Both the position numbers and the translations under genes were made by a program. From Ktedonobacterales bacterium (lineage in GTDB: Bacteria; Chloroflexota; Ktedonobacteria; Ktedonobacterales; JADMIN01): 33,148 nucleotides of DNA. The notes under the pieces are model-generated. The model did no database searches, had not been told where the DNA came from, and saw nothing but the letters and a program-made list of their open reading frames with translations. Of the stretch, positions 3,376 to 23,964 are shown piece by piece. The DNA lies in contig DASVAA010000134.1 of NCBI GenBank assembly GCA_036376595.1, forward strand, positions 1 to 33,148, written 5' to 3'. Within the stretch, counting starts at the first letter, position 1, and each line of letters starts with the position of its first letter.

Positions 3376-5055
3376 GTGTCGCGGGGGCGTCCCGTGTGGC
3401 CCAAAAGATGCACTGCGCCTGGCATGAACGCCGATTCCACACGGTACTCTTCCACCATGGGGAACGCTGACAACTCCGATACCTCCCACGCACAGCAACC
3501 GCGTCCGTGGCACCCAGCGCTCGAAAGCGCGCGGGCCGCGTTTGGTGCCTTGCGCTCTGCCGCCGCGCGCCGCCCGGGTGATTCGCCCGCGGACCAGGAG
3601 TCGGCCGGGGCGCCGCCTGACGCCGAGCCGGTGACGGTGATCCCGGCGGCTGGTGCGCGGCCCGCTCATGCCCATACTTTCGCCAATCAGTGGCACACCT
3701 GGCGCGGCCGCCTTGCGCAGGCCAGCCGCCGGCTCACGCCCCCAAGACCGCGACGGCAACAGACGCCTGGAGTGCCGTTGCTGCCCGCGCCGTGGTTTCG
3801 GGCGGCGCGCCGCTGGTCGCCGGGGCTCATCCCTCCGGCGCTGGCGCTGGCGCTGCTCGGCGTGCTGGCGCTAGTGGGCCATCTCACCGGACGCGGCTCT
3901 GGTATCCTGCCGCCCGCCCAGATTCTGCCGCTGGCCCTGATCTACCTGATCGGCGGCACGATCTACGGCATCGCCCTCTACTACGCGCCCACCAACAACA
4001 TCTGGCTGGCCGTGTTCGGTGGCGGCGCCGCGCTCTACCTGCTGGCCACGCTGTGGGTGCTGGCTGGGCCGATTGCCGTGGCCGCGGTTGCCGTGCTGCT
4101 GTGCGTCCCGGTTTACTTCTACGTGCGCCGCCGCCGGCATACCGTCCCCGCCGGGCAGGCCGCGGTGACGACCCTTGCCGGCGGCTACCATCGCACGCTG
4201 GGCCCCGGCACCACCGTGCTGATCCCTGGTGAGCACACTCTGGCAACGGTGGATACCAGCGACCGCCAGGTTGACGTGCCGACTCAGCGCGTGCGCGTGT
4301 CCGATCCTGACGGCGAGGGATTCGTGGCACGCGCCGCCGCAGCGCTCGCCTACCACGTCACCCCCGGCCAGGCGCATCTCGCCGCGCTGGCCGCCGATAC
4401 CTGGGAGGCAGACCTGGAGCAGCACGCCGAAGCAGCTTTGCGGGCAGCTCTGGGTGAGTGGGGCCATCGCCTGCTCGACGGCGAAGAGCTGCCGGAGCGC
4501 TTCCTCGCTCGCAACGCGCTGGACGACCTGCGCCCCCGCGTGCGGGATGACGGCGTGACCATCTTGTGGGTCAACGTCCGCGACATCTGGCTTACCCCAG
4601 AGAGCGAAGTGATCCCCGTCAACGAGTGGAATGATGCGGCTTCCTCCGCTCGCGACGCTCACGACGAGGAGGGAAGCGCGTCCTACGAAGCGACGCGGCC
4701 CGACTCCGCTGGCATGCGCCCAGACGACCCGGCGCCGCACCCACGTCCCGCCTCGGCGGCGGCCGCGCTGCCCGCGATCGACGACGCCCAGTCGCTCTAC
4801 GGTTCGTCAGAGCCTCTGGAGCGCGAGACGCTCAACCCCGACGCCCTGGCCGACGCCTATGAAGCCGTGCGCGACGGTCACATCGCGGACCCTGAGACGA
4901 TTCGCGAGATCGCCCGCGCCTTCCTGGCCGTCGCCCACGATGCGGAGCTGGTTGAGGACTTCCCTTACGACGCCGTCGGCGCCGCGCAGATTCTCATGGA
5001 GCGCGCGACGGCACTGGAGCGCGCGGGCACGGGCCGCGGCAATCAGCAACACTAA
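3376..5055 (+). CDS. Hypothetical membrane protein (about 4 TM helices) with a divergent SPFH/band-7-like region and an acidic disordered C-terminus; the start codon is uncertain (GTG 3376 or a downstream ATG)
   Basis: A hydrophobic block (LIPPALALALLGVLALVGHL…ILPLALIYLIGGTIYGIALYY…LYLLATLWVLAGPIAVAAVAVLLCVPVYFYV) is followed by VTTLAGGYHRTLGPGTTVLIPGEHTLATVDTSDRQVDVPTQRVRVSDPDGEGFVARAAAALAYHV…LRAALGEW…DDGVTILWVNVRDI, which follows the stomatin/prohibitin β-α pattern. No clear SD precedes any candidate start. Confidence 0.5.
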   Translation: MSRGRPVWPKRCTAPGMNADSTRYSSTMGNADNSDTSHAQQPRPWHPALESARAAFGALRSAAARRPGDSPADQESAGAPPDAEPVTVIPAAGARPAHAHTFANQWHTWRGRLAQASRRLTPPRPRRQQTPGVPLLPAPWFRAARRWSPGLIPPALALALLGVLALVGHLTGRGSGILPPAQILPLALIYLIGGTIYGIALYYAPTNNIWLAVFGGGAALYLLATLWVLAGPIAVAAVAVLLCVPVYFYVRRRRHTVPAGQAAVTTLAGGYHRTLGPGTTVLIPGEHTLATVDTSDRQVDVPTQRVRVSDPDGEGFVARAAAALAYHVTPGQAHLAALAADTWEADLEQHAEAALRAALGEWGHRLLDGEELPERFLARNALDDLRPRVRDDGVTILWVNVRDIWLTPESEVIPVNEWNDAASSARDAHDEEGSASYEATRPDSAGMRPDDPAPHPRPASAAAALPAIDDAQSLYGSSEPLERETLNPDALADAYEAVRDGHIADPETIREIARAFLAVAHDAELVEDFPYDAVGAAQILMERATALERAGTGRGNQQH

Positions 5056-5202
5056 CCCGGATTCTTCGCCCACTTGACGCCAATAGGGGGCGTGGTGGTC
5101 GAGGCATGCACGCGGGCACATCCGCATCGTCTGAGGGTGTGGTACATCCGAGGGTGGCTACTTGGCGATACCGCAACGTAAAATTGCCGCAAAGTTTCGC
5201 TG

Positions 5203-6213
5203 TCACACGCCGGGCGGCTTGCTCGTGAAGAGGTAGATCTTCAGCTCGACCTGACTCGGCGCCAGGTCCGGGTCGTAGAAGTCTATAGGCACGGCCTGCT
5301 GGAAGACGAAGCCGCGCGCCCCGAGCGCGAAGATCACCTCCTCGTCGAAGGCATGCGCCACATCCAGCGCATACGCTGTCTGCCGCGGCGAGGCGAGGCC
5401 GACTGTTGTGAAGTAGTCGAATGCGTAGCGGCCGCGCAGCGCCGCCATCTGGCGTACCTGTGCCTGCGCGGCATTAATTGCCGCGGGATCGCCGGAGAGC
5501 AGGCCGCGCGGATCCACGGTGATGATCGCCTCCACCGGCGCGGGATCAATTGCCGGCATCGTCACCGGCGTCGGCGTGGGACGACCCAACAGGCCACCTG
5601 GCCTCCCAAGCGCCAGCACCCCCGCGAGCGCCACCACGATCGCCAGCACCGCCGCCAGCTCGGCCAGACGTAGCCGGCTGTGCGGAGACTCTGCGCGGTG
5701 TGTCCGGCCCTGGCGACTGAGCGTGGCGGCTATTCGGCGGCGCAGCGGCGAGACGCCCACGCGGCGGATCGCCGCCACGACCGCGGCCATATCGGCGGCG
5801 AAGTCGGGATTGTGCCGCACGCGCAGGGCATTGATCCCCGCCAGCTCGCGCAGGCCCCAGGGCAGTTGCTCCATGGTCGGCATGCGCGCGCCATCCACCA
5901 GCAGCGGGACAACCGGCGTGCCGACCGAGAAAGCGGTTTCGATCTCGACACGCACCGAATCATCTTCCTGGTCAATGCGGCGCTCGCCGCCTGGGTCGCG
6001 GGCCTCCAGCCAGCGCGGACCGATCACCACCACCTGCACGTTGGAGCCGCGAATTGCCTGAGCGATGTGGCGCCGAAAGTCGGTGCCGGCGGGAATCGAA
6101 AGCACGTCCTGAAACACCGAGCGCCGGCCAAACGCCCGTGCAATCCAGTCTACGATGCGCTCAGTGGTCGGCGCGCTGTCGTCGCGCCGGTACGAGACGA
6201 AGATGCGCGTCAT
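5203..6213 (-). CDS. TIR-domain protein with a single TM helix and a ~130 aa extracytoplasmic C-terminal domain (TIR-TM-sensor architecture)
   Basis: The N-terminus MTRIFVSYRRDDS…IAQAIRGSNVQVVVIGPRWL…DDSVRVEIETAF…VVPLLVDG matches the TIR (TIR_2-like) βA motif and retains the Glu position. A TM segment (LAELAAVLAIVVALAGVLALG) and a C-terminal domain of unknown fold follow. ATG at 6211-6213 has GGAGG 7 nt upstream, 45 nt downstream of the recX stop on the same strand. Confidence 0.75.
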   Translation of the reverse strand: MTRIFVSYRRDDSAPTTERIVDWIARAFGRRSVFQDVLSIPAGTDFRRHIAQAIRGSNVQVVVIGPRWLEARDPGGERRIDQEDDSVRVEIETAFSVGTPVVPLLVDGARMPTMEQLPWGLRELAGINALRVRHNPDFAADMAAVVAAIRRVGVSPLRRRIAATLSRQGRTHRAESPHSRLRLAELAAVLAIVVALAGVLALGRPGGLLGRPTPTPVTMPAIDPAPVEAIITVDPRGLLSGDPAAINAAQAQVRQMAALRGRYAFDYFTTVGLASPRQTAYALDVAHAFDEEVIFALGARGFVFQQAVPIDFYDPDLAPSQVELKIYLFTSKPPGV

Positions 6214-6258
6214 CCGGCCCCTCCACCCACGGTCGCCGCAAGCCCATTCTGCTTCCAC

Positions 6259-6969
6259 CTACCATACGTCGCCGCTGGGGTCGCCGCTCACATCCTCGTC
6301 TTGATCCTCATCGCCTGCCACGGCATCCATACCCTCGTGCGTCTCGTCCCACAAGCGCCGCACTGCCTCGCGCGCCACCTCGTAGCTGAAGCCACGGCGC
6401 AGCAGGAATGGCCCCAGCTTGGCGCGGAAACCCGCGAAGTCGAGGCTCGCGACCGAGCGCAGTCGCTGGCGCCCCGCGGCGAGGGCACGCTCTTCGTCCA
6501 GCTCTGGCGTCGTGGCCTCCTCAACCGTCTCGCGGCTCACTCCTCGCTGCCGCAGCTCCTGCGCGATGGCGCGCGACCCGCGCGGACTGAACCGGTCGCG
6601 GTTCTCGACCCAGAAGGCGGCGAATTGTTGGTCGTCGAGAAGCCCCTGCTCCTGGAGTCGATCCAGCACGTGATCGACCGCCTCCGCCGCGGGCGCCTCG
6701 CGATTGCGGCGCGGCGCCAGCAGGCGGCGGCGCACCTCGGCACGACTGCGCGGGCGCGGCGCGAGGAAGCGCAGCGCCGCATCCCACAACCGGCGCTCGC
6801 CCTCGGTCTGGCGCAGGCGCTCAACGTCCGCCTCGCTCAGCTCCATGCCGACGTAAAGGCCAGCGGCGACCACCGCGGCACCATCCAGGCCGAGCGCGTA
6901 GCGCCCATCCAGATGCAGACTGTAGCGGTCGGGACGCTTTTCCTGCGGTTCGATCGCGGTGATACGCAT
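6259..6969 (-). CDS. recX: RecX (RecA regulatory protein)
   Basis: …ALRFLAPRPRSRAEVRRRL…LDDQQFAAFWVENRDRFSPRGSRAIAQELRQRGVSRETVEEA…FLLRRGFSYEVAREAV shows the three-repeat RecX helical pattern, including LDDxxFAxxxV…G.R.I.QEL..+G+. No recA lies upstream in this window. Confidence 0.8.
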   Translation of the reverse strand: MRITAIEPQEKRPDRYSLHLDGRYALGLDGAAVVAAGLYVGMELSEADVERLRQTEGERRLWDAALRFLAPRPRSRAEVRRRLLAPRRNREAPAAEAVDHVLDRLQEQGLLDDQQFAAFWVENRDRFSPRGSRAIAQELRQRGVSRETVEEATTPELDEERALAAGRQRLRSVASLDFAGFRAKLGPFLLRRGFSYEVAREAVRRLWDETHEGMDAVAGDEDQDEDVSGDPSGDVW

Positions 6970-7011
6970 CGTGTGGTCGTCCTTCGGTGAAGAGCGTGCG
7001 GCGCGCGAAGA

Positions 7012-7045
7012 GGGTCCTCAGCCCCTCTCCGTGCGCGGAGAGGGG
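7012..7045 (+). repeat. REP-like element copy (GGGTCCTCAGCCCCTCTCCGTGCGCGGAGAGGGG) in the recX upstream region
   Basis: Read directly; 9-bp perfect arms CCCCTCTCC/GGAGAGGGG. Confidence 0.6.
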
Positions 7046-7151
7046 ATTTGCGCGACTCTGCAAACTGATCTTGAGTTTATGGCAGTCGTCAAAGGTCATT
7101 CGACCCCTCGCGATAGGGGCGTTACCAGATGTCCGCGCGAGATCGTTTCGC

Positions 7152-7199
7152 TCCCCCTCGCCTCCGCGGAGGCGAGGGGGTCAGGGAGTGAGGCTCCCT
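7152..7199 (-). repeat. REP-like element copy in inverted orientation at the 3' end of the DUF4870-like gene
   Basis: The minus strand reads GGGAGCCTCACTCCCTGACCCCCTCGCCTCCGCGGAGGCGAGGGGG; 13-bp perfect arms. Confidence 0.6.
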
Positions 7200-7968
7200 A
7201 CGTGTCCTGTCGATCATTCCGTCCGCGGCCGAGCACGGCGGCAACGCGGTCAAGCCCGCGCAGCAGGCGTCGCGCCAGCGGAGTTACCAGCGGCAGCGAG
7301 GCAACGTGGCCCGCCAATGCCGCCCTGACCAGATGCGTCCAGGCGAAGAAGCTCAGCGCCGCGAGCGCCAGCCAGCCGAGCGCGAAGACCACCGCAAGCA
7401 GCGTGGCCGTCCGGACGCTGGTGGTCAGACCGCCCGCCAGCACCAGCAGGGCGAAGATCAGGACCTGCGCCAGCGCCAGCACCGCGAAGAAGACCAGCGA
7501 TTGGGCCGCGTGGGCGCGCACGAAGCGATTGCGCCGCTCGCGCAACAGCAGCGCCACCGCCGGCAGCAGCGGCACCGCATACGCCAGCGCACCCAGCAGC
7601 CGCGGATTGCGCCGCCGCTCGATGCGCAGCGCCAGTCCGGTCGTGCCCACGCCGCCCATACCACGCGTGCCGCCGCGTGTAGTGGCCAGTCCGTCCGCAC
7701 GTCGCCCATCGGCACGCACGGCTGCCCCACGGCTTGCCGCCGCAACGTCGTCGCGCCCATGGTCCAGCGGTGGCGTCACGGCCCGACGCCTAGAGGCGCC
7801 TTCGAGTGAGGCAGGAGACCCCGCGGAGAGCGGAGCTGGCAAGCCCGCCGCGGGCGCGTGCAGCGGTGGAGCGCTCGCCAATTTGTGGGCGGCATTGGCC
7901 GCATCAGTCCCCGTTCGGTGCTCCAACGGCGGCAGTGTAGGGGCGGCGCTCCCCTCCGCCGCGGACAT
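7198..7968 (-). CDS. Membrane protein with a Pro/Ala-rich N-terminus and a DUF4870-like 3-TM C-terminal domain; start is at 7968 or 8052
   Basis: RNPRLLGALAYAVPLLPAVALLLRERRNRFVRAHAAQSLVFFAVLALAQVLIFALLVLAGG…, i.e. the NR(F/Y)VRFHAxQ signature shared with the next gene. The alternative start at 8052 would overlap the upstream gene by 52 nt. Confidence 0.55.
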   Translation of the reverse strand: MSAAEGSAAPTLPPLEHRTGTDAANAAHKLASAPPLHAPAAGLPAPLSAGSPASLEGASRRRAVTPPLDHGRDDVAAASRGAAVRADGRRADGLATTRGGTRGMGGVGTTGLALRIERRRNPRLLGALAYAVPLLPAVALLLRERRNRFVRAHAAQSLVFFAVLALAQVLIFALLVLAGGLTTSVRTATLLAVVFALGWLALAALSFFAWTHLVRAALAGHVASLPLVTPLARRLLRGLDRVAAVLGRGRNDRQDT

Positions 7969-7999
7969 AGGCTTCTGGGGCTGGGCGCCGGGGGCGCCG

Positions 8000-8818
8000 C
8001 TAGCAGGGCGATTCGGGGATCTGTAGCGGGGGCGCCGCGTACCGCTCGGCATAGGCTCCTACAATCGGCCAGCGAATGTGATGTCCGGTCCAGGCACCGA
8101 TCATCGTGAACAGCCACGGCACGACGATGCCCAGGACCACCACGACGACCGCAAGTCCACTGCCAAGGGCGCCGAAGACCGTCCAGTGGGTCACGCGAGA
8201 GAAATCGTGCAGCAGCGCGTCCAGTACATAGACGACGACGCCGGCCACTGTGAAGACGCTAGTGAGCAGGATCGCTTGCAGTGCGTGGAAGCGCACGTAA
8301 CGGTTGTTGCGCTCGGCGAAGTAGACAATCAAGCCGGTGAGCCACCACAGCAGGTAGCTGAAGCCCGCGGTGGTGTCGGCGCTGACGGTAAAGGTCGTCG
8401 GTCCCCACGACTGTGCCGTGCGCCATGGGACGTGCGTGCGCAGAGCCGGCAGCGTGCCCTGCGGCCGGCGCGGCGGCTGCGGCGGCACGTAGGGTGGCGC
8501 GGAGGGCGTGTGCCAGAGAGGCGGCGCGCCCGATGGCGCGTCCTGGTAGGTGGCGGCGTCATGGAGGATCGGCTCGGCGCCGATCCGTGCTCCGGGCAGG
8601 GCAGGTGGCACGGGCGGTGGTGCTACTGGAGCGCTTGTACCGTTGGGAAGCTGCTCTCGTCGCAGATCGAGCACGGTGGCCTGATTATCTCCAGCGTCCG
8701 GCGGCGTTGTGGCCGGGGCGGCAACGGGAGCGTGATTCGTGCCTGCTTTGTCCGTGCGGATGGTTCCCTCATGTGCCCCTGAGGATGGGGCGTGTCCACT
8801 CGCCGACTGCGGGTCCAT
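8000..8818 (-). CDS. Paralogous membrane protein with a Pro-rich N-terminus and a DUF4870-like C-terminal domain
   Basis: MDPQSASGH…PPLWHTPSAPPYVPPQPPRRPQG…FSYLLWWLTGLIVYFAERNNRYVRFHALQAILLTSVFTVAGVVVYVL…, the same motif as the 7198 gene. The 623-aa track ORF 8000..9871 is a wrong-frame read-through across parA, so only the 3' 272 codons from ATG 8816-8818 are taken. Confidence 0.55.
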   Translation of the reverse strand: MDPQSASGHAPSSGAHEGTIRTDKAGTNHAPVAAPATTPPDAGDNQATVLDLRREQLPNGTSAPVAPPPVPPALPGARIGAEPILHDAATYQDAPSGAPPLWHTPSAPPYVPPQPPRRPQGTLPALRTHVPWRTAQSWGPTTFTVSADTTAGFSYLLWWLTGLIVYFAERNNRYVRFHALQAILLTSVFTVAGVVVYVLDALLHDFSRVTHWTVFGALGSGLAVVVVVLGIVVPWLFTMIGAWTGHHIRWPIVGAYAERYAAPPLQIPESPC

Positions 8819-8916
8819 GACTTGCTCTGAATCCACCGCCACCCTCCCATCGCCCTCAGGGTCCCCCACGCACTGCCCCACACCGGCTGATCCTTCAGAC
8901 GAGCGAGACCCGCCCG

Positions 8917-9780
8917 CTAGCCACCCACATAGCGCAGGTACTCGTCGGCCAGCGCGCTGAACTGCCGGTGCGGACCATTGCCGCCGAACTTCTGGCGCAG
9001 CGAGCCAACCGGCTCCTCCACGTCCGCTGCCTCGGCCACCTCCAGCGCCTCGGTAATGATCGTGTTGAAGATCGGCGGGTGGATGCCGGGGATGGCGTCG
9101 CGGCGCATGCTGAGCACGGTTTGCTTGTGGAGCTTGCTGGTGGGGCGGAAGCGCGAGACGATGATCCCCAGGCCGAAGATCTCGTGCTGCGCGCGCAGGG
9201 CGAAATCGGCCATGCGGTCGAGCACCAGCGGCACGCCGAGCGTCGAGAGGATGTCGGGGACGACAGGGATCAGAAAGTAGCGGCTGATGGCGATGCCGTT
9301 GAGCGTAATGACGCCCAGATTCGGCGGGCAGTCGATCAGCACGTGGTCGTAGTGCGGCAACACGTCGCGCAGCGTCTCGCGCAGCGCGTAGACCGGCGGG
9401 CCGCGGAAGGTGTCGAGGTCGGAGATTTTGGTGATCTTGTCCTGGATGCGGTGCAGACGGATGCTGGAGGGCAGCAGATCGAGGCCGGGAATGCCGCCGG
9501 CGACGTTGGAGACACGCGACATGATGGCATCGGGCGCCGAGAAGAGCGAGGTGCCGTCGAGCTGGTCCTTGAAGAGCTGATAAAGCGTCTGGCCGGATTG
9601 ATCGCGCTCGCGCCAGCGCCGCTCGTTGACCATCGCGATGGTGGCGTTGGTCTGCGGATCGAGGTCGATCACCAGCACGCGCTTGGCATGCTCGGCAGCC
9701 AGGTAGTGGGCAAGCGCCACCGTCAGTGTGGTCTTGCCGACGCCGCCCTTGAGGTTGATAACACTTGTGACGACAGCCAT
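8917..9780 (-). CDS. ParA/MinD-family P-loop ATPase (deviant Walker A), orphan with no parB adjacent
   Basis: MAVVTSVINLKGGVGKTTLTVALAHYLA…VLVIDLDPQTNAT…DHVLIDCPPNLGVITLNGIAIS. ATG at 9778-9780 has GGGAGGAG 8 nt upstream. Confidence 0.8.
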   Translation of the reverse strand: MAVVTSVINLKGGVGKTTLTVALAHYLAAEHAKRVLVIDLDPQTNATIAMVNERRWRERDQSGQTLYQLFKDQLDGTSLFSAPDAIMSRVSNVAGGIPGLDLLPSSIRLHRIQDKITKISDLDTFRGPPVYALRETLRDVLPHYDHVLIDCPPNLGVITLNGIAISRYFLIPVVPDILSTLGVPLVLDRMADFALRAQHEIFGLGIIVSRFRPTSKLHKQTVLSMRRDAIPGIHPPIFNTIITEALEVAEAADVEEPVGSLRQKFGGNGPHRQFSALADEYLRYVGG

Positions 9781-10057
9781 CCCCCGACTCCTCCCGTCTC
9801 CGCTGCCCGCGGCCACCGCGTCCTGCTCGAAAATGCCCGCGCGCCGCCATGGCGCGTGTCGCGTTCTGCATCGCTCATCCTATCCGAATTGCGGCATCTT
9901 GTCCAGCCTTGCGTACTTGTGCGGAGCCGCACCAGCGCCGGGCGGCGTACGATGGGCTGGGGGCAGTGCGCGTGACGCTGGCACCCGGATGGGGCACGAC
10001 GTACACTCCACAGCATCACCCTATCGCTGGCACAGATACCGTGGCGACCGACCGAAC

Positions 10058-10114
10058 GTAGGGGCATCCGGTGGGCATCCGGTGGGCATCCGGTGGGTGC
10101 CCTGTTGGCCCTAC
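10058..10114 (+). repeat. Tandem direct repeat (GGGCATCCGGT ×3) embedded in a GTAGGGG…CCCTAC palindrome; a degenerate member of the 5'-UTR palindrome family
   Basis: GTAGGGGCATCCGGTGGGCATCCGGTGGGCATCCGGTGGGTGCCCTGTTGGCCCTAC read directly from the sequence. Confidence 0.7.
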
Positions 10115-18655: not shown

Positions 18656-18670
18656 GCGTGCCGCCGTGCC

Positions 18671-18695
18671 GTAGGGGCGTCCGGTGGGCGCCCAT
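18671..18695 (+). promoter_or_regulatory. Copy of the GC palindrome (GTAGGGGCGTCCGGTGGGCGCCC) 20 nt upstream of the alaX RBS
   Basis: Read directly from the sequence; one mismatch in the right arm. Confidence 0.55.
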
Positions 18696-18714
18696 CGGAG
18701 AATCGAGGAGCCAG

Positions 18715-19473
18715 ATGGAGACCACCTCCGAGACCAGCAGCGTTGCTCCGACCGAGCTGTTGTATTCCACCGATGCTTACGTCAAGGAATTCGATGCCAT
18801 CGTGGTGGCCGCCGAGGGCAACGCGCTCGCGCTGGACCGCACGGCGTTCTACCCAGCCGGAGGGGGCCAGATGGCCGACCGCGGCCATCTCCACTGGAAC
18901 GGCCGCGCGCTCTCGGTGATCGCACTGCGCAAGGAGGACGGCGTCGTCTGGCACGAGGTCGAGGCGGCGGAAGGGCCGCTGCCGGCGGCGGGCGAGCAGG
19001 TCAAGGGCGAACTCGACTGGGACTTCCGCTACCGCATGATGCGCACGCACACCGCGCTGCACACGCTCTGCGGCGTGATCTTCCGCGACTTCGGCGCGCA
19101 GGTGACCGGCGGCCACATGTACCCCGACCGCGCGCGGATGGACTTCTCCATGGATGCCTTTACGCCCGATCTGGCGCAACTCATCGAACAGACGGTCAAC
19201 GAGACGCTGGCGGCGGCGCACACGATCAAGGTGTACTCGCTGCCGCGCGAGCAGGCATTCGAGATTCCCGACCTGATTCGCGCCAAGATTAACCTGCTGC
19301 CGCCCGGCATTCAGACGGTGCGCATCGTCGAGATCGAGGGCGTGGACCTGCAAGCCGACGGCGGCACGCATGTCGCCAACACGCGCGAGGTCGGGCAGAT
19401 ACGGGTGCTCAAGACCGAGAACAAAGGCAAGTACAACAAGCGGATGGAAATCACGCTGCTGGATGAGGACTAG
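18715..19473 (+). CDS. AlaX-like tRNA trans-editing protein (alanyl/threonyl-tRNA synthetase editing domain homolog, HxxxH zinc motif)
   Basis: …MRTHTALHTLCGV… (HxxxH) and …DGGTHVANTREVG… (AlaRS editing-domain GGTHV motif, with Asp in place of the usual Cys). ATG 18715 with GAGGAG 5 nt upstream. The stop lies 4 nt before the ileS ATG. Confidence 0.8.
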   Translation: METTSETSSVAPTELLYSTDAYVKEFDAIVVAAEGNALALDRTAFYPAGGGQMADRGHLHWNGRALSVIALRKEDGVVWHEVEAAEGPLPAAGEQVKGELDWDFRYRMMRTHTALHTLCGVIFRDFGAQVTGGHMYPDRARMDFSMDAFTPDLAQLIEQTVNETLAAAHTIKVYSLPREQAFEIPDLIRAKINLLPPGIQTVRIVEIEGVDLQADGGTHVANTREVGQIRVLKTENKGKYNKRMEITLLDED

Positions 19474-19477
19474 TTCG

Positions 19478-22400
19478 ATGGCAGATAAGCGACAAACGAA
19501 GGGTAGTGCCGGCGGAGGCACCGGCGCGGCTCCCAAGCGCACTCCCAATCGGGCGAAGGCCGCAGCACATGGCACTCGCGGTCGCGCGAATGGTGTAGCG
19601 GCGAGGCCCGCCTCGCCCAGTGGGGCAGTGAGGACTCCCCTCTTCCTGCCCGTGCCGGCGCCGACGAAGGTGGACTATCCACTGCTCGAAGAGGGCGTGC
19701 AGCGTTGGTGGGACGAGCACAAGATCCTCGACAAGTATCTCGTGCGCAACGAGGGCGCCGAGGAGCGTTGGCGCTTCCTGGACGGGCCGATCACCGCCAA
19801 CAACCCGATGGGCGTGCATCACGCCTGGGGCCGCACGTACAAGGACCTGTGGCAGCGCTTCAACACCATGCGCGGCTACCGCCAGCGCTATCAGAACGGC
19901 TTCGATTCGCAGGGCCTGTGGGTCGAGGTCGAGGTCGAGAAAGAGCTAGGTTTCACCAACAAGCGCCAGATCGAGGAGTACGGCATCGGCGCATTCGTCG
20001 AGCAGTGCAAGCAGCGCGTGCTGCGCTTCTCGGCGATCCAGACGGCGCAGTCGCTGCGGCTGGGTGAGTGGATGGACTGGCCCAACTCGTACTACACGAT
20101 GTCGGACGAGAACAACTACACCATCTGGGACTTCCTCAAGACCTGCTGGGAGCGCGGCCTGATCTACCGCGGCACCGATGTGATGCCGTGGTGCCCGCGC
20201 TGTGCCACTGGCCTTTCCGACATGGAGATCAACGAGGGGCGCCGCGAGGTGCAGCACACCAGCGTCTACGTGCGCTTCCCACTGGTGGATCGCCCCAACG
20301 AGTACCTGCTGATCTGGACGACGACGCCCTGGACACTGCCGGCCAACGTCGCCGCGGCAGTCAACTCCGAGCTGACCTACGCGCGTGTCGAGCAGGATGG
20401 CGCGGTCTACTACCTCAGCAACGACGTCGCCCCCAAGCTGAAGAAGCTGCAAGGCCACGAGCACGGCGAGTTCACAGTCACGGGCACACTGCCGGGCAGC
20501 GAGCTGGTCGGCTGGCGCTACCATGGCCCCTTTGACGAGCTGCCCGCCTGGAAGAGCGCGCAGGCCGAGCATCGCGTGGTGGCTTGGAAGGACGTCACCG
20601 CGACAGAGGGCACAGGCATCGTCCACATCGCGCCGGGCGCCGGCCGCGAGGACTTCGCGCTCTCGAAAGAGGACGACCTGGCGGTGCTGGCGCCGGTGGA
20701 CGAGAACGGCAACTACGTCGAGGGCTACGGCACGCTCACCGGCCTGCACGCCGGCGAGGTGGCACGTCCAATCTTCGAGAATCTCAAAGAGAAGGGCCTG
20801 TTCTACCAGACCGAGTCGTACAAGCACGTCTATCCGCACTGCTGGCGCTGCGGCACCGAGCTGCTCTTCCGGCTGGTGGAGGAGTGGTTCATCTCGATGG
20901 ACCCGCTGCGCGATCCACTGATGGCGATCGTCCGCCACATCCGCTGGATCCCGGAATTCGGTCTGGAGCGCGAGCTGGACTGGCTGCGTAACATGGAAGA
21001 CTGGATGATCTCCAAGAAGCGCTACTGGGGCCTCGCGCTGCCGATCTACCCCTGCCTCGCGTGCGGCACCTTCGAGGTGATCGGCGGCAAAGAGGAGCTG
21101 CGCGCGCGCGCCGTGGAGGGCTGGGACGAGTTCGAGGGCCACTCGCCGCACCGGCCGTGGGTGGATGCGGTCAAAGTCCGCTGCGCGCGCTGTGGCGAGA
21201 TCATCAGTCGCATCCCCGACGTCGGCAATCCATGGCTCGACGCCGGCATCGTGCCGTTCTCGACGCTCCACTACCGCCACGACCGCGAGTACTGGCGCGC
21301 GTGGTATCCCGCCGACTTCATCACCGAGGGCTTCCCAGGCCAGTTCCGTAACTGGTTCTACTCGATGTTGGTGATGGCTTGCGTGCTGGACGACTCGGCG
21401 CCTTTCAAGACGGTGCTGGGCTACGCCACACTTCTCGACCAGAACGGTGAGGAGATGCACAAGTCCAAGGGCAACAGCATCCCCTTCGACGAGGCCGCGG
21501 CGCTGGTCGGAGCGGATACGATGCGCTGGCTCTACGTCAACCACAACCCGGCGCAGAACCTGCGCTTCCCGCGTGTCCCGACAGAGGAGCAGGCGGCCCA
21601 GGCGCGCGCGAAGGGCGAGCCGCCGCGGCTCAACGAGCTGTGGATGCAGGTCCGCGCGCCGCTGGATAAGCTGTGGAACGTCTACTCGTTCTTCGTCACC
21701 TACGCCAACATCGATCGCTTCGACCCGACGAAACACGTGATGGCGGTGAGCGAGCGCAGTGACCTCGACCAGTGGATCCTCTCGGAGCTCCAGGAGACCA
21801 TCCAGAAGGTCGAGCGGGCGCTGGCGGTCTACGAGAGCGAGCCGGCGGCCGCGGCAATCAGCGCGTTCGTGGAGAACCTCTCCAACTGGTACGTGCGCCG
21901 CAGCCGGCGTCGCTTCTGGAAGAGCGGCGAGGACGCCGATAAGGTCGCTGCCTACCTGACGCTCTACGAGTGCCTGGTGACGGCGACGGAGCTACTGGCG
22001 CCGCTGACGCCCTTCCTGGCGGAGTCACTCTTCCAGAACCTGGTGCGCTCGGTGAATGCGGCCTCGCCGGAGAGCGTACACCTGGCCGACTGGCCGCGGG
22101 CGAACCCGACACTCATCGTCCCGCGGCTGCGCGACGAGACGGCGCTGGTGCAGCGCATCGTCAACCTGGGCCGCGCGGTGCGCGAGAAGGCGCAGATCCG
22201 CGTGCGCCAGCCGCTCGGCACGCTCTACGTGCGCGTTCCGGCGCAGACCGAGCGCGAGAGCCTGCGGCGCCTGGGCAATCAAGCGCTCGACGAGCTGAAC
22301 GTCAAGCGGCTGGAGTTCCTGCCGCTGGAGAGCGGCATGCTCTCATATACCGTTCAGCCGCGCATGGCGGCACTCGGCCCCAGGTATGGCAAGCTGCTGC

Positions 22401-22945
22401 CGAAGGTGCTGGCCGCGCTGCGCGCGGGCGGTCCGGCTGAGATGCAGCAGCGAGCGCGCACGCTGGCCGAGACGGGCCGCCTGCCGCTCACTGTTGAGGG
22501 ACAGGAGGTGGTGCTGACGCCGGAGGAGCTGGAGGTGGAGGCGAGCGCTCGCGAGGGGTTCGTCGCCGCCGAGGAGAACGGCTACGTCGCGGTGCTCGAC
22601 ACGGCGCTGACGCCTGAGCTGGTGGCCGAGGGGCTGGTGCGCGACCTTACGCGCTACGTGCAGGACGTGCGCAAGCACGCCGGCCTCGCAGTCGAGGACA
22701 CAATTGACCTGACGCTCGCCACCGACGCCGAACTGGCCGAGGTCATCCGCCGCAACGCTGAGTACCTTAGAGACGAGACGCTGGCGCGTGAGCTGACGGT
22801 GACGGCGCCAGAGGCCAACGGTGCCACAGCAACGTCGGCCGTCGACGAGGGCCAGGCGTCCGCCGGACGCCCCTACGCCGAGACGATCCCGGCGGCCAGG
22901 CTCGGCGGACACGAGGTGACGGTGACGGTGCGCAAGCGCGCGTAA
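19478..22945 (+). CDS. ileS: Isoleucyl-tRNA synthetase, type-2-like, with a ~65 aa basic low-complexity N-terminal extension and non-canonical class-I signature motifs
   Basis: IleRS-specific blocks: WCPRCATGLSDMEI, TTTPWTLPAN (editing T-rich peptide), GTGIVHIAPGAGREDF, YPHCWRCGTELLFRLVEEWFISMD, DWMISKKRYWGLALPIYPC and the C-terminal Zn ribbon CARCGEI. The HIGH position reads GVHH and KMSKS reads EMHKS. The true start is taken as ATG 19478 (MADKRQTKG…) rather than the track's 19370. Confidence 0.85.
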   Translation: MADKRQTKGSAGGGTGAAPKRTPNRAKAAAHGTRGRANGVAARPASPSGAVRTPLFLPVPAPTKVDYPLLEEGVQRWWDEHKILDKYLVRNEGAEERWRFLDGPITANNPMGVHHAWGRTYKDLWQRFNTMRGYRQRYQNGFDSQGLWVEVEVEKELGFTNKRQIEEYGIGAFVEQCKQRVLRFSAIQTAQSLRLGEWMDWPNSYYTMSDENNYTIWDFLKTCWERGLIYRGTDVMPWCPRCATGLSDMEINEGRREVQHTSVYVRFPLVDRPNEYLLIWTTTPWTLPANVAAAVNSELTYARVEQDGAVYYLSNDVAPKLKKLQGHEHGEFTVTGTLPGSELVGWRYHGPFDELPAWKSAQAEHRVVAWKDVTATEGTGIVHIAPGAGREDFALSKEDDLAVLAPVDENGNYVEGYGTLTGLHAGEVARPIFENLKEKGLFYQTESYKHVYPHCWRCGTELLFRLVEEWFISMDPLRDPLMAIVRHIRWIPEFGLERELDWLRNMEDWMISKKRYWGLALPIYPCLACGTFEVIGGKEELRARAVEGWDEFEGHSPHRPWVDAVKVRCARCGEIISRIPDVGNPWLDAGIVPFSTLHYRHDREYWRAWYPADFITEGFPGQFRNWFYSMLVMACVLDDSAPFKTVLGYATLLDQNGEEMHKSKGNSIPFDEAAALVGADTMRWLYVNHNPAQNLRFPRVPTEEQAAQARAKGEPPRLNELWMQVRAPLDKLWNVYSFFVTYANIDRFDPTKHVMAVSERSDLDQWILSELQETIQKVERALAVYESEPAAAAISAFVENLSNWYVRRSRRRFWKSGEDADKVAAYLTLYECLVTATELLAPLTPFLAESLFQNLVRSVNAASPESVHLADWPRANPTLIVPRLRDETALVQRIVNLGRAVREKAQIRVRQPLGTLYVRVPAQTERESLRRLGNQALDELNVKRLEFLPLESGMLSYTVQPRMAALGPRYGKLLPKVLAALRAGGPAEMQQRARTLAETGRLPLTVEGQEVVLTPEELEVEASAREGFVAAEENGYVAVLDTALTPELVAEGLVRDLTRYVQDVRKHAGLAVEDTIDLTLATDAELAEVIRRNAEYLRDETLARELTVTAPEANGATATSAVDEGQASAGRPYAETIPAARLGGHEVTVTVRKRA

Positions 22946-23887: not shown

Positions 23888-23964
23888 GGGGCCGTAGCTC
23901 AGTTGGATAGAGCGAGCGCCTCCTAAGCGCTAGGTCGCAGGTTCGATCCCTGTCGGCCCCACCA
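23888..23964 (+). tRNA. tRNA-Arg (anticodon CCT), CCA encoded
   Basis: Hand-folded cloverleaf: acceptor GGGGCCG/CGGCCCC, D-arm GCTC-AGTTGGATA-GAGC, anticodon stem AGCGC/GCGCT with loop CTCCTAA (CCT), variable loop AGGTC, T-arm GCAGG-TTCGATC-CCTGT, discriminator A, then CCA. A TATACT -10 lies at 23868-23873. Confidence 0.85.

What the first reader, a model, noticed from the sequence alone, without database searches (positions are those of the whole stretch)
5203..6969. recX followed by a TIR–TM–extracytoplasmic-domain protein in an apparent operon, with no recA
RecX is normally co-transcribed with recA. Here its upstream neighbour is a membrane-protein gene and its downstream neighbour, 45 nt away on the same strand with its own GGAGG, is a protein with an N-terminal cytoplasmic TIR domain (IFVSYRRDDS…), one TM helix and a ~130 aa C-terminal domain of unknown fold that should face outward. 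This resembles a Toll-like-receptor topology in reverse domain order, so it is a plausible transmembrane sensor with a NAD+-consuming or signalling TIR output. Linkage to recX hints at DNA-damage-coupled expression. No Cheo-type LexA box is visible upstream of recX. The only AT-rich dyad is AAACT-N7-AGTTT at 7071-7087.
Basis: partly seen in the sequence, partly recalled or inferred. Interest (0 to 1): 0.65.

Follow-up and report, generated by a model that had tools for sequence, protein, structure and literature searches.

The report
Membrane TIR protein inserted after recX
In a soil Ktedonobacterales genome, a membrane-anchored TIR (possible NAD-cleaving) protein with an unclassified outward-facing domain sits just after recX, but the pairing is a recent insertion in a few close relatives, not a conserved DNA-damage module.

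Summary
On the minus strand, recX (6259-6969) is followed after 45 nt by a 336-aa gene (5203-6213). That gene encodes an N-terminal TIR domain, one TM helix, a Pro/Thr linker and a C-terminal domain of about 105 aa. There is no recA in the 33 kb.

The recX link is shallow. All 6 loci carrying the TIR gene, the window included, have recX upstream, but these are only the nearest relatives (RecX at least 79% identical). One relative keeps the same flanks with recX abutting the convergent SPFH gene, so the TIR gene is a roughly 1.2-kb insertion. The partners of recX in most related loci are a ParA-like ATPase and two DUF4870-like membrane proteins. No LexA box was found.

Verdict: a new variant of a known kind, of moderate-to-low interest.

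The parts
6259..6969 (-). recX (236 aa). It is the housekeeping ortholog, judged by synteny with the ParA-like and DUF4870 block in related genomes.
   Evidence: Pfam RecX_HTH1, HTH2 and HTH3 above cut-off. Best NCBIfam model is RecX PRK14135, below its equivalog cut-off. Synteny.
6214..6258 (-). 45-nt recX-TIR spacer with GGAGG at 6220-6224
   Evidence: Sequence. The spacer is 42-73 nt long and conserved only around the RBS in 4 loci. It folds no better than shuffles (z=+0.6).
5203..6213 (-). Gene for the 336-aa protein with TIR domain, TM helix and extracytoplasmic domain (stop codon 5203-5205)
   Evidence: Nine clusters of full-length homologues at 70-100% identity.
5803..6204 (-). TIR domain (Pfam TIR_2 match, residues 4-137)
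   Evidence: The closest solved sequence is the SARM1 TIR, E=3e-6, about 29% identity over 132 residues.
5944..5946 (-). Codon of Glu90, aligned with the catalytic Glu642 of SARM1
   Evidence: Alignment, with position counted as 564+78=642. Invariant in 9 homologues. Codon read.
5605..5673 (-). Transmembrane helix (residues about 181-203)
   Evidence: Kyte-Doolittle peak 2.58. AF2 helix 179-202. Positive-inside bias.
5536..5604 (-). Pro/Thr-rich linker (residues 204-226)
   Evidence: Sequence. Low pLDDT at the start of the domain model.
5224..5535 (-). Extracytoplasmic beta-alpha-beta-alpha-beta-beta domain (residues 227-330). It belongs to an unclassified family.
6985..7185 (.). Window-specific structured segment of about 200 nt between the DUF4870 gene and recX.
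   Evidence: Absent from L021, L023 and L025. Fold z=-4.3. Palindrome I2. No Rfam match.
7198..8052 (-). DUF4870/MamF_MmsF-like membrane protein B, the recX upstream neighbour in most related loci examined
   Evidence: Pfam DUF4870 E=2.3e-4, below cut-off. Orthologs lie directly before or overlap recX in L021, L023-L026, L029 and L030.
8000..8818 (-). Membrane protein A (Pro-rich N-terminus, DUF4870-like C-terminus). The start coordinate is approximate.
   Evidence: Translation and tblastn synteny.
8917..9816 (-). ParA/MinD-like P-loop ATPase, first gene of the conserved block
   Evidence: Pfam AAA_31 and CbiA. 91-98% identical across loci where RecX is only 63-85% identical.
3376..5055 (+). 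Convergent SPFH/Band_7 membrane protein, the ancestral 3' neighbour of recX
   Evidence: Pfam Band_7. Its ortholog ends 2 nt from the recX stop in L030.

Best explanation
The recX here is the ordinary recX of a Ktedonobacterales (Chloroflexota) genome. In the Ktedonobacterales loci examined it is not next to recA. In most of them it is the last gene of a block made of a ParA-like ATPase, two DUF4870-like membrane proteins and recX.

In one shallow sub-lineage, a gene of about 1.2 kb was inserted between recX and the convergent SPFH gene. It encodes a type-II single-pass membrane protein with four parts:
- a cytoplasmic SARM1-like TIR domain that keeps the catalytic Glu;
- one TM helix;
- a Pro/Thr linker;
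- an extracytoplasmic beta-alpha-beta-alpha-beta-beta domain from an unclassified family. Its closest solved folds are OmpA/MotB-type cell-wall-binding domains.

Most likely mechanism (inferred): the outer domain binds or monitors a cell-envelope component, probably the wall of this monoderm. A change in that contact lets the molecules cluster. Clustering assembles the cytoplasmic TIR domains into an active NAD+ hydrolase or signal generator, giving growth arrest, cell death or a stress signal.

The gene is probably transcribed by read-through from recX. That reflects where it landed, not a functional partnership with RecX.

Shown: gene order, domains, the conserved Glu, charge-based topology, the insertion, and the phyletic pattern. 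Inferred: enzymatic activity, ligand, trigger and co-transcription.
For: Domains.

Glu90 aligns with SARM1 E642 and is invariant. SYRR at residues 7-10 matches SARM1 SYRR in that alignment.

Topology: one hydrophobic helix with 5-9 K/R before it and 1-3 after, in 9 of 9 homologues.

Portable extracytoplasmic module: the C-domain always follows a TM helix and a Pro/Thr linker. This holds in small stand-alone proteins and behind a Ser/Thr kinase (P0169), TPR repeats (P0166, two copies) and a second TIR (P0181) whose TIR is not alignable with this one.

Insertion: L030 keeps ParA-like, memA, memB and recX, then the convergent SPFH ortholog 2 nt later, then PSP1 and the ANTAR regulator, with no TIR gene. 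TIR is present only where RecX is at least 79% identical: L001-L004 and L021. It is absent at 76, 68, 68, 67 and 63%.

recA lies directly upstream of recX in 15 of 16 loci from other phyla. tblastn finds none in the window or in L001-L004 and L021-L026, and no RecA gene is called in L029-L031.

There is no hairpin in the recX-TIR spacer and the RBS is conserved.
Against: NADase activity is untested. A Glu at this position occurs in more than 70% of all TIRs and is not a reliable predictor of activity (PMC7075850). Of SARM1's BB-loop motif EKLEAG, only AG is retained (LSIPAG).

No partner effector or known defence-system gene lies nearby.

The missing terminator is weak evidence, because none is detectable even between the convergent TIR and SPFH genes.

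Topology rests on a hydropathy scan and charge counts, not on a dedicated predictor.
Confidence: 0.5

Rival explanations
1. One reading: recX and the TIR gene form a functional DNA-damage-coupled module. TIR expression or activity would be tied to RecA/RecX status, for example NAD+ depletion after irreparable damage or after phage-induced RecA activation.
For: Same strand, a 42-73 nt gap, a conserved RBS and no hairpin. All 6 TIR-gene loci, the window included, have recX immediately upstream; recX is cut at the contig end in L003. In L001 the downstream flank differs.
Against: All these loci are close relatives (TIR 70-93% identical, RecX 79-85%). More distant orthologous recX loci lack the TIR gene, and the slot holds unrelated genes or nothing. 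The recX is the syntenic housekeeping copy, not a dedicated paralog. No LexA box was found. The other TIR-TM-domain protein (P0181) and the kinase and TPR fusions point to envelope-related function rather than DNA-related function.
Confidence: 0.12
2. The TIR domain is not an enzyme but an interaction scaffold. The protein would be a membrane adaptor that recruits other TIR or partner proteins, or simply an envelope structural protein.
For: A Glu at the catalytic position is common in non-catalytic TIRs too (PMC7075850). SARM1's catalytic BB-loop residues are mostly not conserved. Many other TIR_2 proteins exist in related metagenomes.
Against: Bacterial TIR_2 domains that have been tested are mostly NAD+-consuming (established knowledge; not tested here). 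The strictly conserved SYRR and Glu90 across homologues fit an active site. No candidate partner is encoded nearby.
Confidence: 0.18
3. The protein works with the upstream ParA-like ATPase and DUF4870 membrane proteins as the last member of a five-gene envelope or cell-organisation operon.
For: All five genes are on the same strand. In relatives, recX is 13-50 nt from the DUF4870 gene or overlaps it, so a long transcript is plausible.
Against: The four-gene block exists without the TIR gene in most related loci. In this window a structured insert of about 200 nt separates the block from recX.
Confidence: 0.08
4. The TM helix plus C-domain is a MotB/ZorB-type stator 'B' subunit that needs an ion-channel 'A' partner. 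The TIR would be an output of a Zorya-like motor.
Against: A profile of that TM motif scores negatively on the TIR proteins. No MotA/ExbB/ZorA-like gene is adjacent in the window. Pfam MotB_plug and OmpA do not hit even the stand-alone proteins.
Confidence: 0.05

Closest known systems
SARM1 TIR domain (NAD+ hydrolase), and bacterial TIR_2 NADases in general
   Same: It is the best solved-structure sequence match (E=3e-6, about 29% identity over 132 residues). The SYRR motif of the first strand is shared, as is the Glu equivalent to E642.
   Different: There are no ARM or SAM domains. The TIR is N-terminal and tethered to the membrane. The BB-loop catalytic motif is mostly different. Activity is untested.
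Toll-like and IL-1 receptors (single-pass receptor with cytoplasmic TIR)
   Same: One TM helix separates an outside domain from a cytoplasmic TIR.
   Different: The domain order is reversed (type-II, TIR at the N-terminus). The outside domain is a small alpha/beta domain, not LRR or Ig. There is no evidence of common descent for the architecture.
OmpA-C / MotB / Pal peptidoglycan-binding domains (Pfam PF00691)
   Different: No sequence or profile similarity: no Pfam hit and hhalign 0.4%. The family consensus shows no TD...RA or NRRVE-type motif. Foldseek is not significant.
PknB-type Ser/Thr kinases with extracellular PASTA domains
   Same: Same logic: a cytoplasmic signalling domain, one TM helix, and a wall-facing domain. 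The same C-domain is fused to such a kinase in P0169.
   Different: Different extracellular fold, and a TIR instead of a kinase in the window protein.
Thoeris ThsB and other TIR defence proteins
   Same: Weak HMM similarity over the first 70 residues: PADLOC ThsB E=2e-6, NCBIfam ThcB4 E=6e-8.
   Different: Far below model cut-offs (31.9 against 220 bits). No ThsA or other partner nearby. ThsB proteins are soluble.
recA-recX operon
   Same: A genuine RecX with three three-helix repeats.
   Different: No recA in the window (33 kb) or in the roughly +/-6 kb of sequence held for the related loci. Instead recX follows ParA-like and DUF4870 genes. In contrast, 15 of 16 recX loci from other phyla have recA directly upstream.

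Membership tests
TIR domain (Pfam TIR_2, PF13676) | Profile match above the curated gathering score | tested here: met
   44.7 bits against a cut-off of 28, residues 4-137
Catalytic (NADase) TIR domains | Glutamate between strands C and D, equivalent to SARM1 E642 | tested here: met
   E90 aligns with E642 and is invariant in 9 homologues. This residue is necessary but not sufficient (PMC7075850).
Catalytic (NADase) TIR domains | Measured NAD+ cleavage that depends on self-association | not testable with these tools
   Needs biochemistry
SARM1-type TIR | BB-loop motif E(R/K)LEAG | tested here: not met
   The aligned segment is LSIPAG; only A-G is shared (motif from PMC7075850)
RecX (PF02631, PF21982, PF21981) | Three tandem three-helix repeats above gathering scores | tested here: met
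   51.2, 45.9 and 37.2 bits, each against a cut-off of 26
recA-recX operon | recA immediately upstream on the same strand | tested here: not met
   tblastn with two RecA proteins finds nothing in the window or in Ktedonobacterales loci L001-L004 and L021-L026
SOS (LexA) regulon, Gram-positive-type box | GAAC-N4-GTTC operator upstream of the gene or operon | tested here: not met
   Only 2 one-mismatch hits in 33 kb, neither near the genes; chance expectation is 8. The LexA motif of this order is unknown.
OmpA-like peptidoglycan-binding domain (PF00691) | Sequence or profile similarity to the family | tested here: not met
   No Pfam hit for 38 members at E<=10. hhalign probability is 0.4% against E. 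coli OmpA-C, a sequence verified against PDB 2mqe.
OmpA-like peptidoglycan-binding domain (PF00691) | Beta-alpha-beta-alpha-beta-beta fold superposable on solved members | tested here: inconclusive
OmpA-like peptidoglycan-binding domain (PF00691) | Conserved Asp/Arg pair that binds the diaminopimelate of peptidoglycan | not testable with these tools
The only invariant or nearly invariant columns in the family are G95 and F101.
MotB/ZorB-type stator B subunit | Invariant Asp in the single TM helix, and an adjacent A-subunit gene | tested here: not met
   A profile of the GWLFADL TM motif of the stand-alone homologues scores negatively on the window protein. No MotA/ZorA-like neighbour.
Thoeris (ThsB) | Model score above cut-off, and a ThsA-type effector in the locus | tested here: not met
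   31.9 against 220 bits. No effector nearby.
Single-pass receptor with cytoplasmic TIR (TLR-like topology) | One TM helix, TIR on the cytoplasmic side | tested here: met
   One hydropathy peak. The K/R bias is N-in for 9 of 9 homologues. This is a prediction only.

The most novel reading that the evidence does not exclude
The C-terminal module would be a previously unclassified extracytoplasmic cell-wall-sensing domain family with an OmpA-like fold. In filamentous Chloroflexota it is wired through one TM helix to alternative cytoplasmic outputs: TIR (twice, with unrelated TIRs), Ser/Thr kinase and TPR. The window protein would then be a one-component 'inverted Toll-like receptor', in which a surface sensor directly gates a SARM1-like NADase in response to envelope damage or phage attack.
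Probability: 0.2. Interest if true: 0.7.

Novelty: new variant of a known kind. Interest (0 to 1): 0.35.

Why it matters
Bacterial TIR proteins are known mainly as soluble NAD+-consuming effectors or signal generators in anti-phage systems. How they are triggered is often the open question. A TIR tethered by one helix to an outward-facing, wall-domain-like module would be a very simple outside-in trigger. The same module on a kinase and on an unrelated TIR suggests a reusable sensor that has no family entry yet.

Two further points follow. Adjacency to a well-known gene (recX) can be a recent insertion, so it should not be read as functional coupling. And in this order recX has left recA for a ParA-like/DUF4870 neighbourhood that nobody has explained.

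Tried and rejected
- AlphaFold of the full-length protein with 9 close homologues was unusable (pLDDT 42.6). Only the C-domain, modelled with 38 diverse sequences, gave a good model.
- The afdb50 fold library was not available.
- The genome-contig scan with RecX alone returned only distant phyla and no Ktedonobacterales. Those loci were reused as an outgroup for recA linkage.
- The JGI metagenome scan with the full-length alignment found only TIR-only relatives.
- The profile search of the word-indexed protein database with the C-domain alignment added only 9 small proteins.
- Cluster look-up gave no organism names for the C-domain homologues.
- The idea that the TM helix plus C-domain derives from the MotB-like stand-alone proteins, including their TM Asp, was rejected by a profile search.
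- Sequence membership in OmpA was rejected.
- No known RNA family was found in 4900-7400 or at gathering thresholds elsewhere, apart from one tRNA.
- No sigma-70-like promoter and no credible terminator were found in 4900-7400. The one terminator-like hit, at 5330-5312, lies inside the TIR gene and is within chance expectation.
- There were no full-length matches in plasmid or phage collections.
- Literature searches found nothing on recX-TIR linkage or on this architecture.
Full report
**1. What is in the sequence**

The finding lies on the minus strand.
- recX occupies 6259-6969 (236 aa). It matches all three RecX three-helix repeats above Pfam's curated scores.
- After a 45-nt spacer comes a 336-aa ORF (ATG 6213, stop 5203-5205). 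The spacer carries GGAGG at 6220-6224, 6 nt before the ATG.
- A longer GTG-initiated reading exists. However, all nine homologues begin MTRIFVSY, and the DNA upstream is variable in length and sequence apart from the RBS.
- The window comes from a Ktedonobacterales (Chloroflexota) metagenome-assembled genome, according to the name a source gives the identical proteins.

**2. The protein**

TIR domain:
- Residues 4-137 match TIR_2 (44.7 bits, cut-off 28).
- By sequence, the closest solved structures are all SARM1 TIR domains (E=3e-6, about 29% identity).
- In that alignment the N-terminal FVSYRR matches SARM1 FISYRR. Glu90 falls on the catalytic Glu642; I counted 78 residues on from V564.
- Glu90 is invariant in the nine homologues.
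- The published survey of TIR domains notes that this Glu is needed for NADase activity but occurs in more than 70% of all TIRs. It also notes that SARM1 depends on a BB-loop motif, E(R/K)LEAG (PMC7075850). Here that motif reads LSIPAG.
- Catalysis is therefore plausible but not established.

Membrane helix and topology:
- A single strongly hydrophobic segment lies at about 181-203.
- In the 20 residues on each side, it is preceded by 5-9 Lys/Arg and followed by 1-3, in every homologue.

**3. The C-terminal domain**

Family:
- Residues 204-336, searched against 1.8 billion representative proteins, gave 35 hits.
- Most are proteins of 150-210 aa with an N-terminal TM helix, a Pro/Thr-rich linker and this domain.
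- The domain also occurs after a TM helix behind a Ser/Thr kinase (P0169), behind TPR repeats (P0166, two tandem copies), and behind another TIR (P0181). It also occurs as a tandem pair (P0177).
- P0181's TIR is not alignable with the window's TIR by BLASTP, while the C-domains are 31% identical. The TIR-TM-domain combination has therefore arisen twice or is old and highly diverged.
- None of 38 family members hits any Pfam model, even at E<=10. A profile of the family finds no PDB sequence.

Structure:
- With the 38-sequence alignment, AlphaFold gives a confident model (pLDDT 92.2, pTM 0.83). Its order is beta, alpha, beta, alpha, beta, beta.
- Foldseek gives nothing at E<=1e-3. Its weak hits are a mix of FtsZ C-terminal, Rid, OmpA-like and RusA domains.
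- From memory of SCOP, all of these belong to the same general 'Bacillus chorismate mutase-like' fold. The fold class is therefore secure but the superfamily is not.
- A profile comparison with E. coli OmpA-C gives a probability of 0.4%. I first verified that OmpA-C sequence as identical to PDB 2mqe.

Conclusion: an unclassified extracytoplasmic module whose nearest solved shape is a wall-binding domain. Membership in the OmpA family is not supported.

**4. Is the recX linkage meaningful?**

Loci that carry the TIR gene:
- Full-length homologues form only nine 90%-identity clusters, at 70-100% identity.
- The five homologous contigs that could be read all have recX immediately upstream: L001, L002, L003 (recX cut by the contig end), L004 and L021. 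In L001 the downstream flank differs.
- That looks like conservation, but these are the nearest relatives only (RecX 79-85% identical).

Orthologous recX loci further out lack the TIR gene:

| Locus | RecX identity | What follows recX |
|---|---|---|
| L029 | 76% | an unrelated multi-TM protein |
| L023 | 68% | a kinase with an FHA domain |
| L025/L026 (complete genome CP126532) | 68% | a convergent MalT-like gene |
| L031 | 63% | HtrA-like proteases |
| L030 | 67% | convergent SPFH ortholog, 2 nt away |

L030 is the most telling. It has the window's flanks on both sides: ParA-like, memA, memB and recX, then the SPFH ortholog, PSP1 and the ANTAR regulator. Its recX stop is 2 nt from the end of the convergent SPFH gene. 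The TIR gene is therefore an insertion of about 1.2 kb into an older syntenic block.

**5. What recX is really linked to**
- Most of the related loci examined show, upstream on the same strand, a ParA/MinD-like ATPase and two DUF4870-like membrane proteins. The second of these ends 13-50 nt before recX or overlaps it by 4 nt. In L031 the block is interrupted.
- The ATPase is 91-98% identical across loci where RecX is only 63-85% identical.
- recA lies directly upstream of recX in 15 of 16 recX loci from other phyla: Gemmatimonadota, Saccharibacteria, Oscillospiraceae and an actinobacterium.
- By tblastn there is no recA in the window or in loci L001-L004 and L021-L026. No RecA gene is called in L029-L031.

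**6. Transcription signals**
- The recX-TIR spacer folds no better than shuffled sequence (z=+0.6). It has no promoter-like or terminator-like site, so read-through is plausible.
- The 147-nt spacer between the convergent TIR and SPFH genes also shows no terminator (z=0.13). The absence of a hairpin is therefore weak evidence in this genome.
- Upstream of recX, the window has a segment of about 200 nt that L021, L023 and L025 lack. It folds strongly (z=-4.3). It contains a 14-nt perfect palindrome (7153-7180) and a second GC hairpin.
It is unlikely to be a conserved operator.
- No LexA-type box and no Rfam family were found.

**7. Mechanism**
- The best-supported reading is a membrane-tethered TIR whose outside domain reports on the envelope. 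Clustering would be the step that activates the TIR, because TIR NADases need self-association (established knowledge).
- The recurrence of the same outside module on a kinase and on an unrelated TIR supports a sensor or anchor role.
- Activity, ligand and trigger are inferred.
- No known defence partner is nearby. PADLOC and NCBIfam give only weak similarities to Thoeris-type or SAVED-TIR models over the N-terminal 70 residues, far below cut-off.
- No full-length relative is found on plasmids or phages.

**8. A side lead**
- Of the 39 C-domain homologues of 230 aa or less, 33 carry an almost invariant GWLFADL motif at the start of their TM helix. I recall this as reminiscent of the Asp-containing helix of MotB/ExbD-type proteins.
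- In three independent loci they directly follow a 2-TM coiled-coil protein of about 445 aa. In L027 that protein has a weak match to the tail of ZorA (E=9e-6).
- These pairs sit inside a conserved cluster. It contains an HSP70-VWA protein, a zinc-ribbon/Fn3 protein of about 920 aa, a TPR protein of about 980 aa and, in L027, a GrpE-like protein.
- The window protein does not share that TM motif, so it is not a stator-type subunit.

**9. Verdict**
- The recX connection is a recent accident of insertion.
- The unknown domain is a real, unclassified family with an OmpA-like shape.
- This is a new variant of a known kind (a bacterial TIR protein with a sensor-like domain), of moderate-to-low interest unless the surface-sensor reading is shown experimentally.

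Noticed in passing
window 7198-9816 (minus strand); L021, L023-L026, L029, L030: In these Ktedonobacterales loci recX is the last gene of a block made of a ParA/MinD-like ATPase, two DUF4870-like membrane proteins and recX. The ATPase is 91-98% identical where RecX is only 63-85% identical. The function of this block, and why recX sits there instead of next to recA, is unexplained.
   Followed up: partly
window ~6985-7185: A strongly structured segment of about 200 nt lies between the DUF4870 gene and recX and is absent from the closest relative. It has a 14-nt perfect palindrome at 7153-7180 plus a 10-bp GC hairpin; fold z=-4.3. It could be a small mobile element, a terminator/promoter cassette or a regulatory RNA. 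There is no Rfam match.
   Followed up: partly
L027 4671-6540; L028; L032 3-1113; L033 3662-5543: Small stand-alone homologues of the C-domain carry an almost invariant GWLFADL motif (an Asp in the TM helix). They directly follow a 2-TM coiled-coil protein of about 445 aa with a weak ZorA-tail match. Both sit in a conserved cluster with an HSP70-VWA protein, a zinc-ribbon/Fn3 protein of about 920 aa, a TPR protein of about 980 aa and, in L027, a GrpE-like protein. This may be a MotAB/ZorAB-like pair in an undescribed system.
   Followed up: partly
proteins P0169, P0166, P0181, P0177: The same unclassified C-domain is fused after a TM helix to a Ser/Thr kinase, to TPR repeats (two copies of the domain) and to an unrelated TIR. 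It also occurs as a tandem pair. The family has no Pfam entry.
   Followed up: partly
L023 7000-10599; L029 5771-6316; L031 6868-8983: The position just downstream of recX is a variable slot across relatives. It holds a kinase with an FHA domain plus a second kinase, a multi-TM protein, or two HtrA-like proteases. The window's TIR gene occupies the same slot.
   Followed up: no
window 10062-10097: A perfect tandem repeat of an 11-mer (GGGCATCCGGT, 3.3 copies) lies at the predicted start of the class-III aminotransferase ORF. This is in the divergent intergenic region shared with the ParA-like gene.
   Followed up: no
window 5056-5202 and 4900-7400 generally: No intrinsic-terminator-like hairpin is detectable even between the convergent TIR and SPFH genes. 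Terminator scans are therefore uninformative for operon calls in this genome.
   Followed up: yes
window 18658-19473 and 19370-22945: An AlaX-like editing-domain ORF (tRNA_SAD) overlaps the predicted 5' end of the isoleucyl-tRNA synthetase ORF by about 100 nt. The long N-terminal extension of the synthetase ORF may be an ORF-calling artefact.
   Followed up: no
window 23888-23961: A single tRNA gene, the only Rfam hit at gathering threshold in the window.
   Followed up: no
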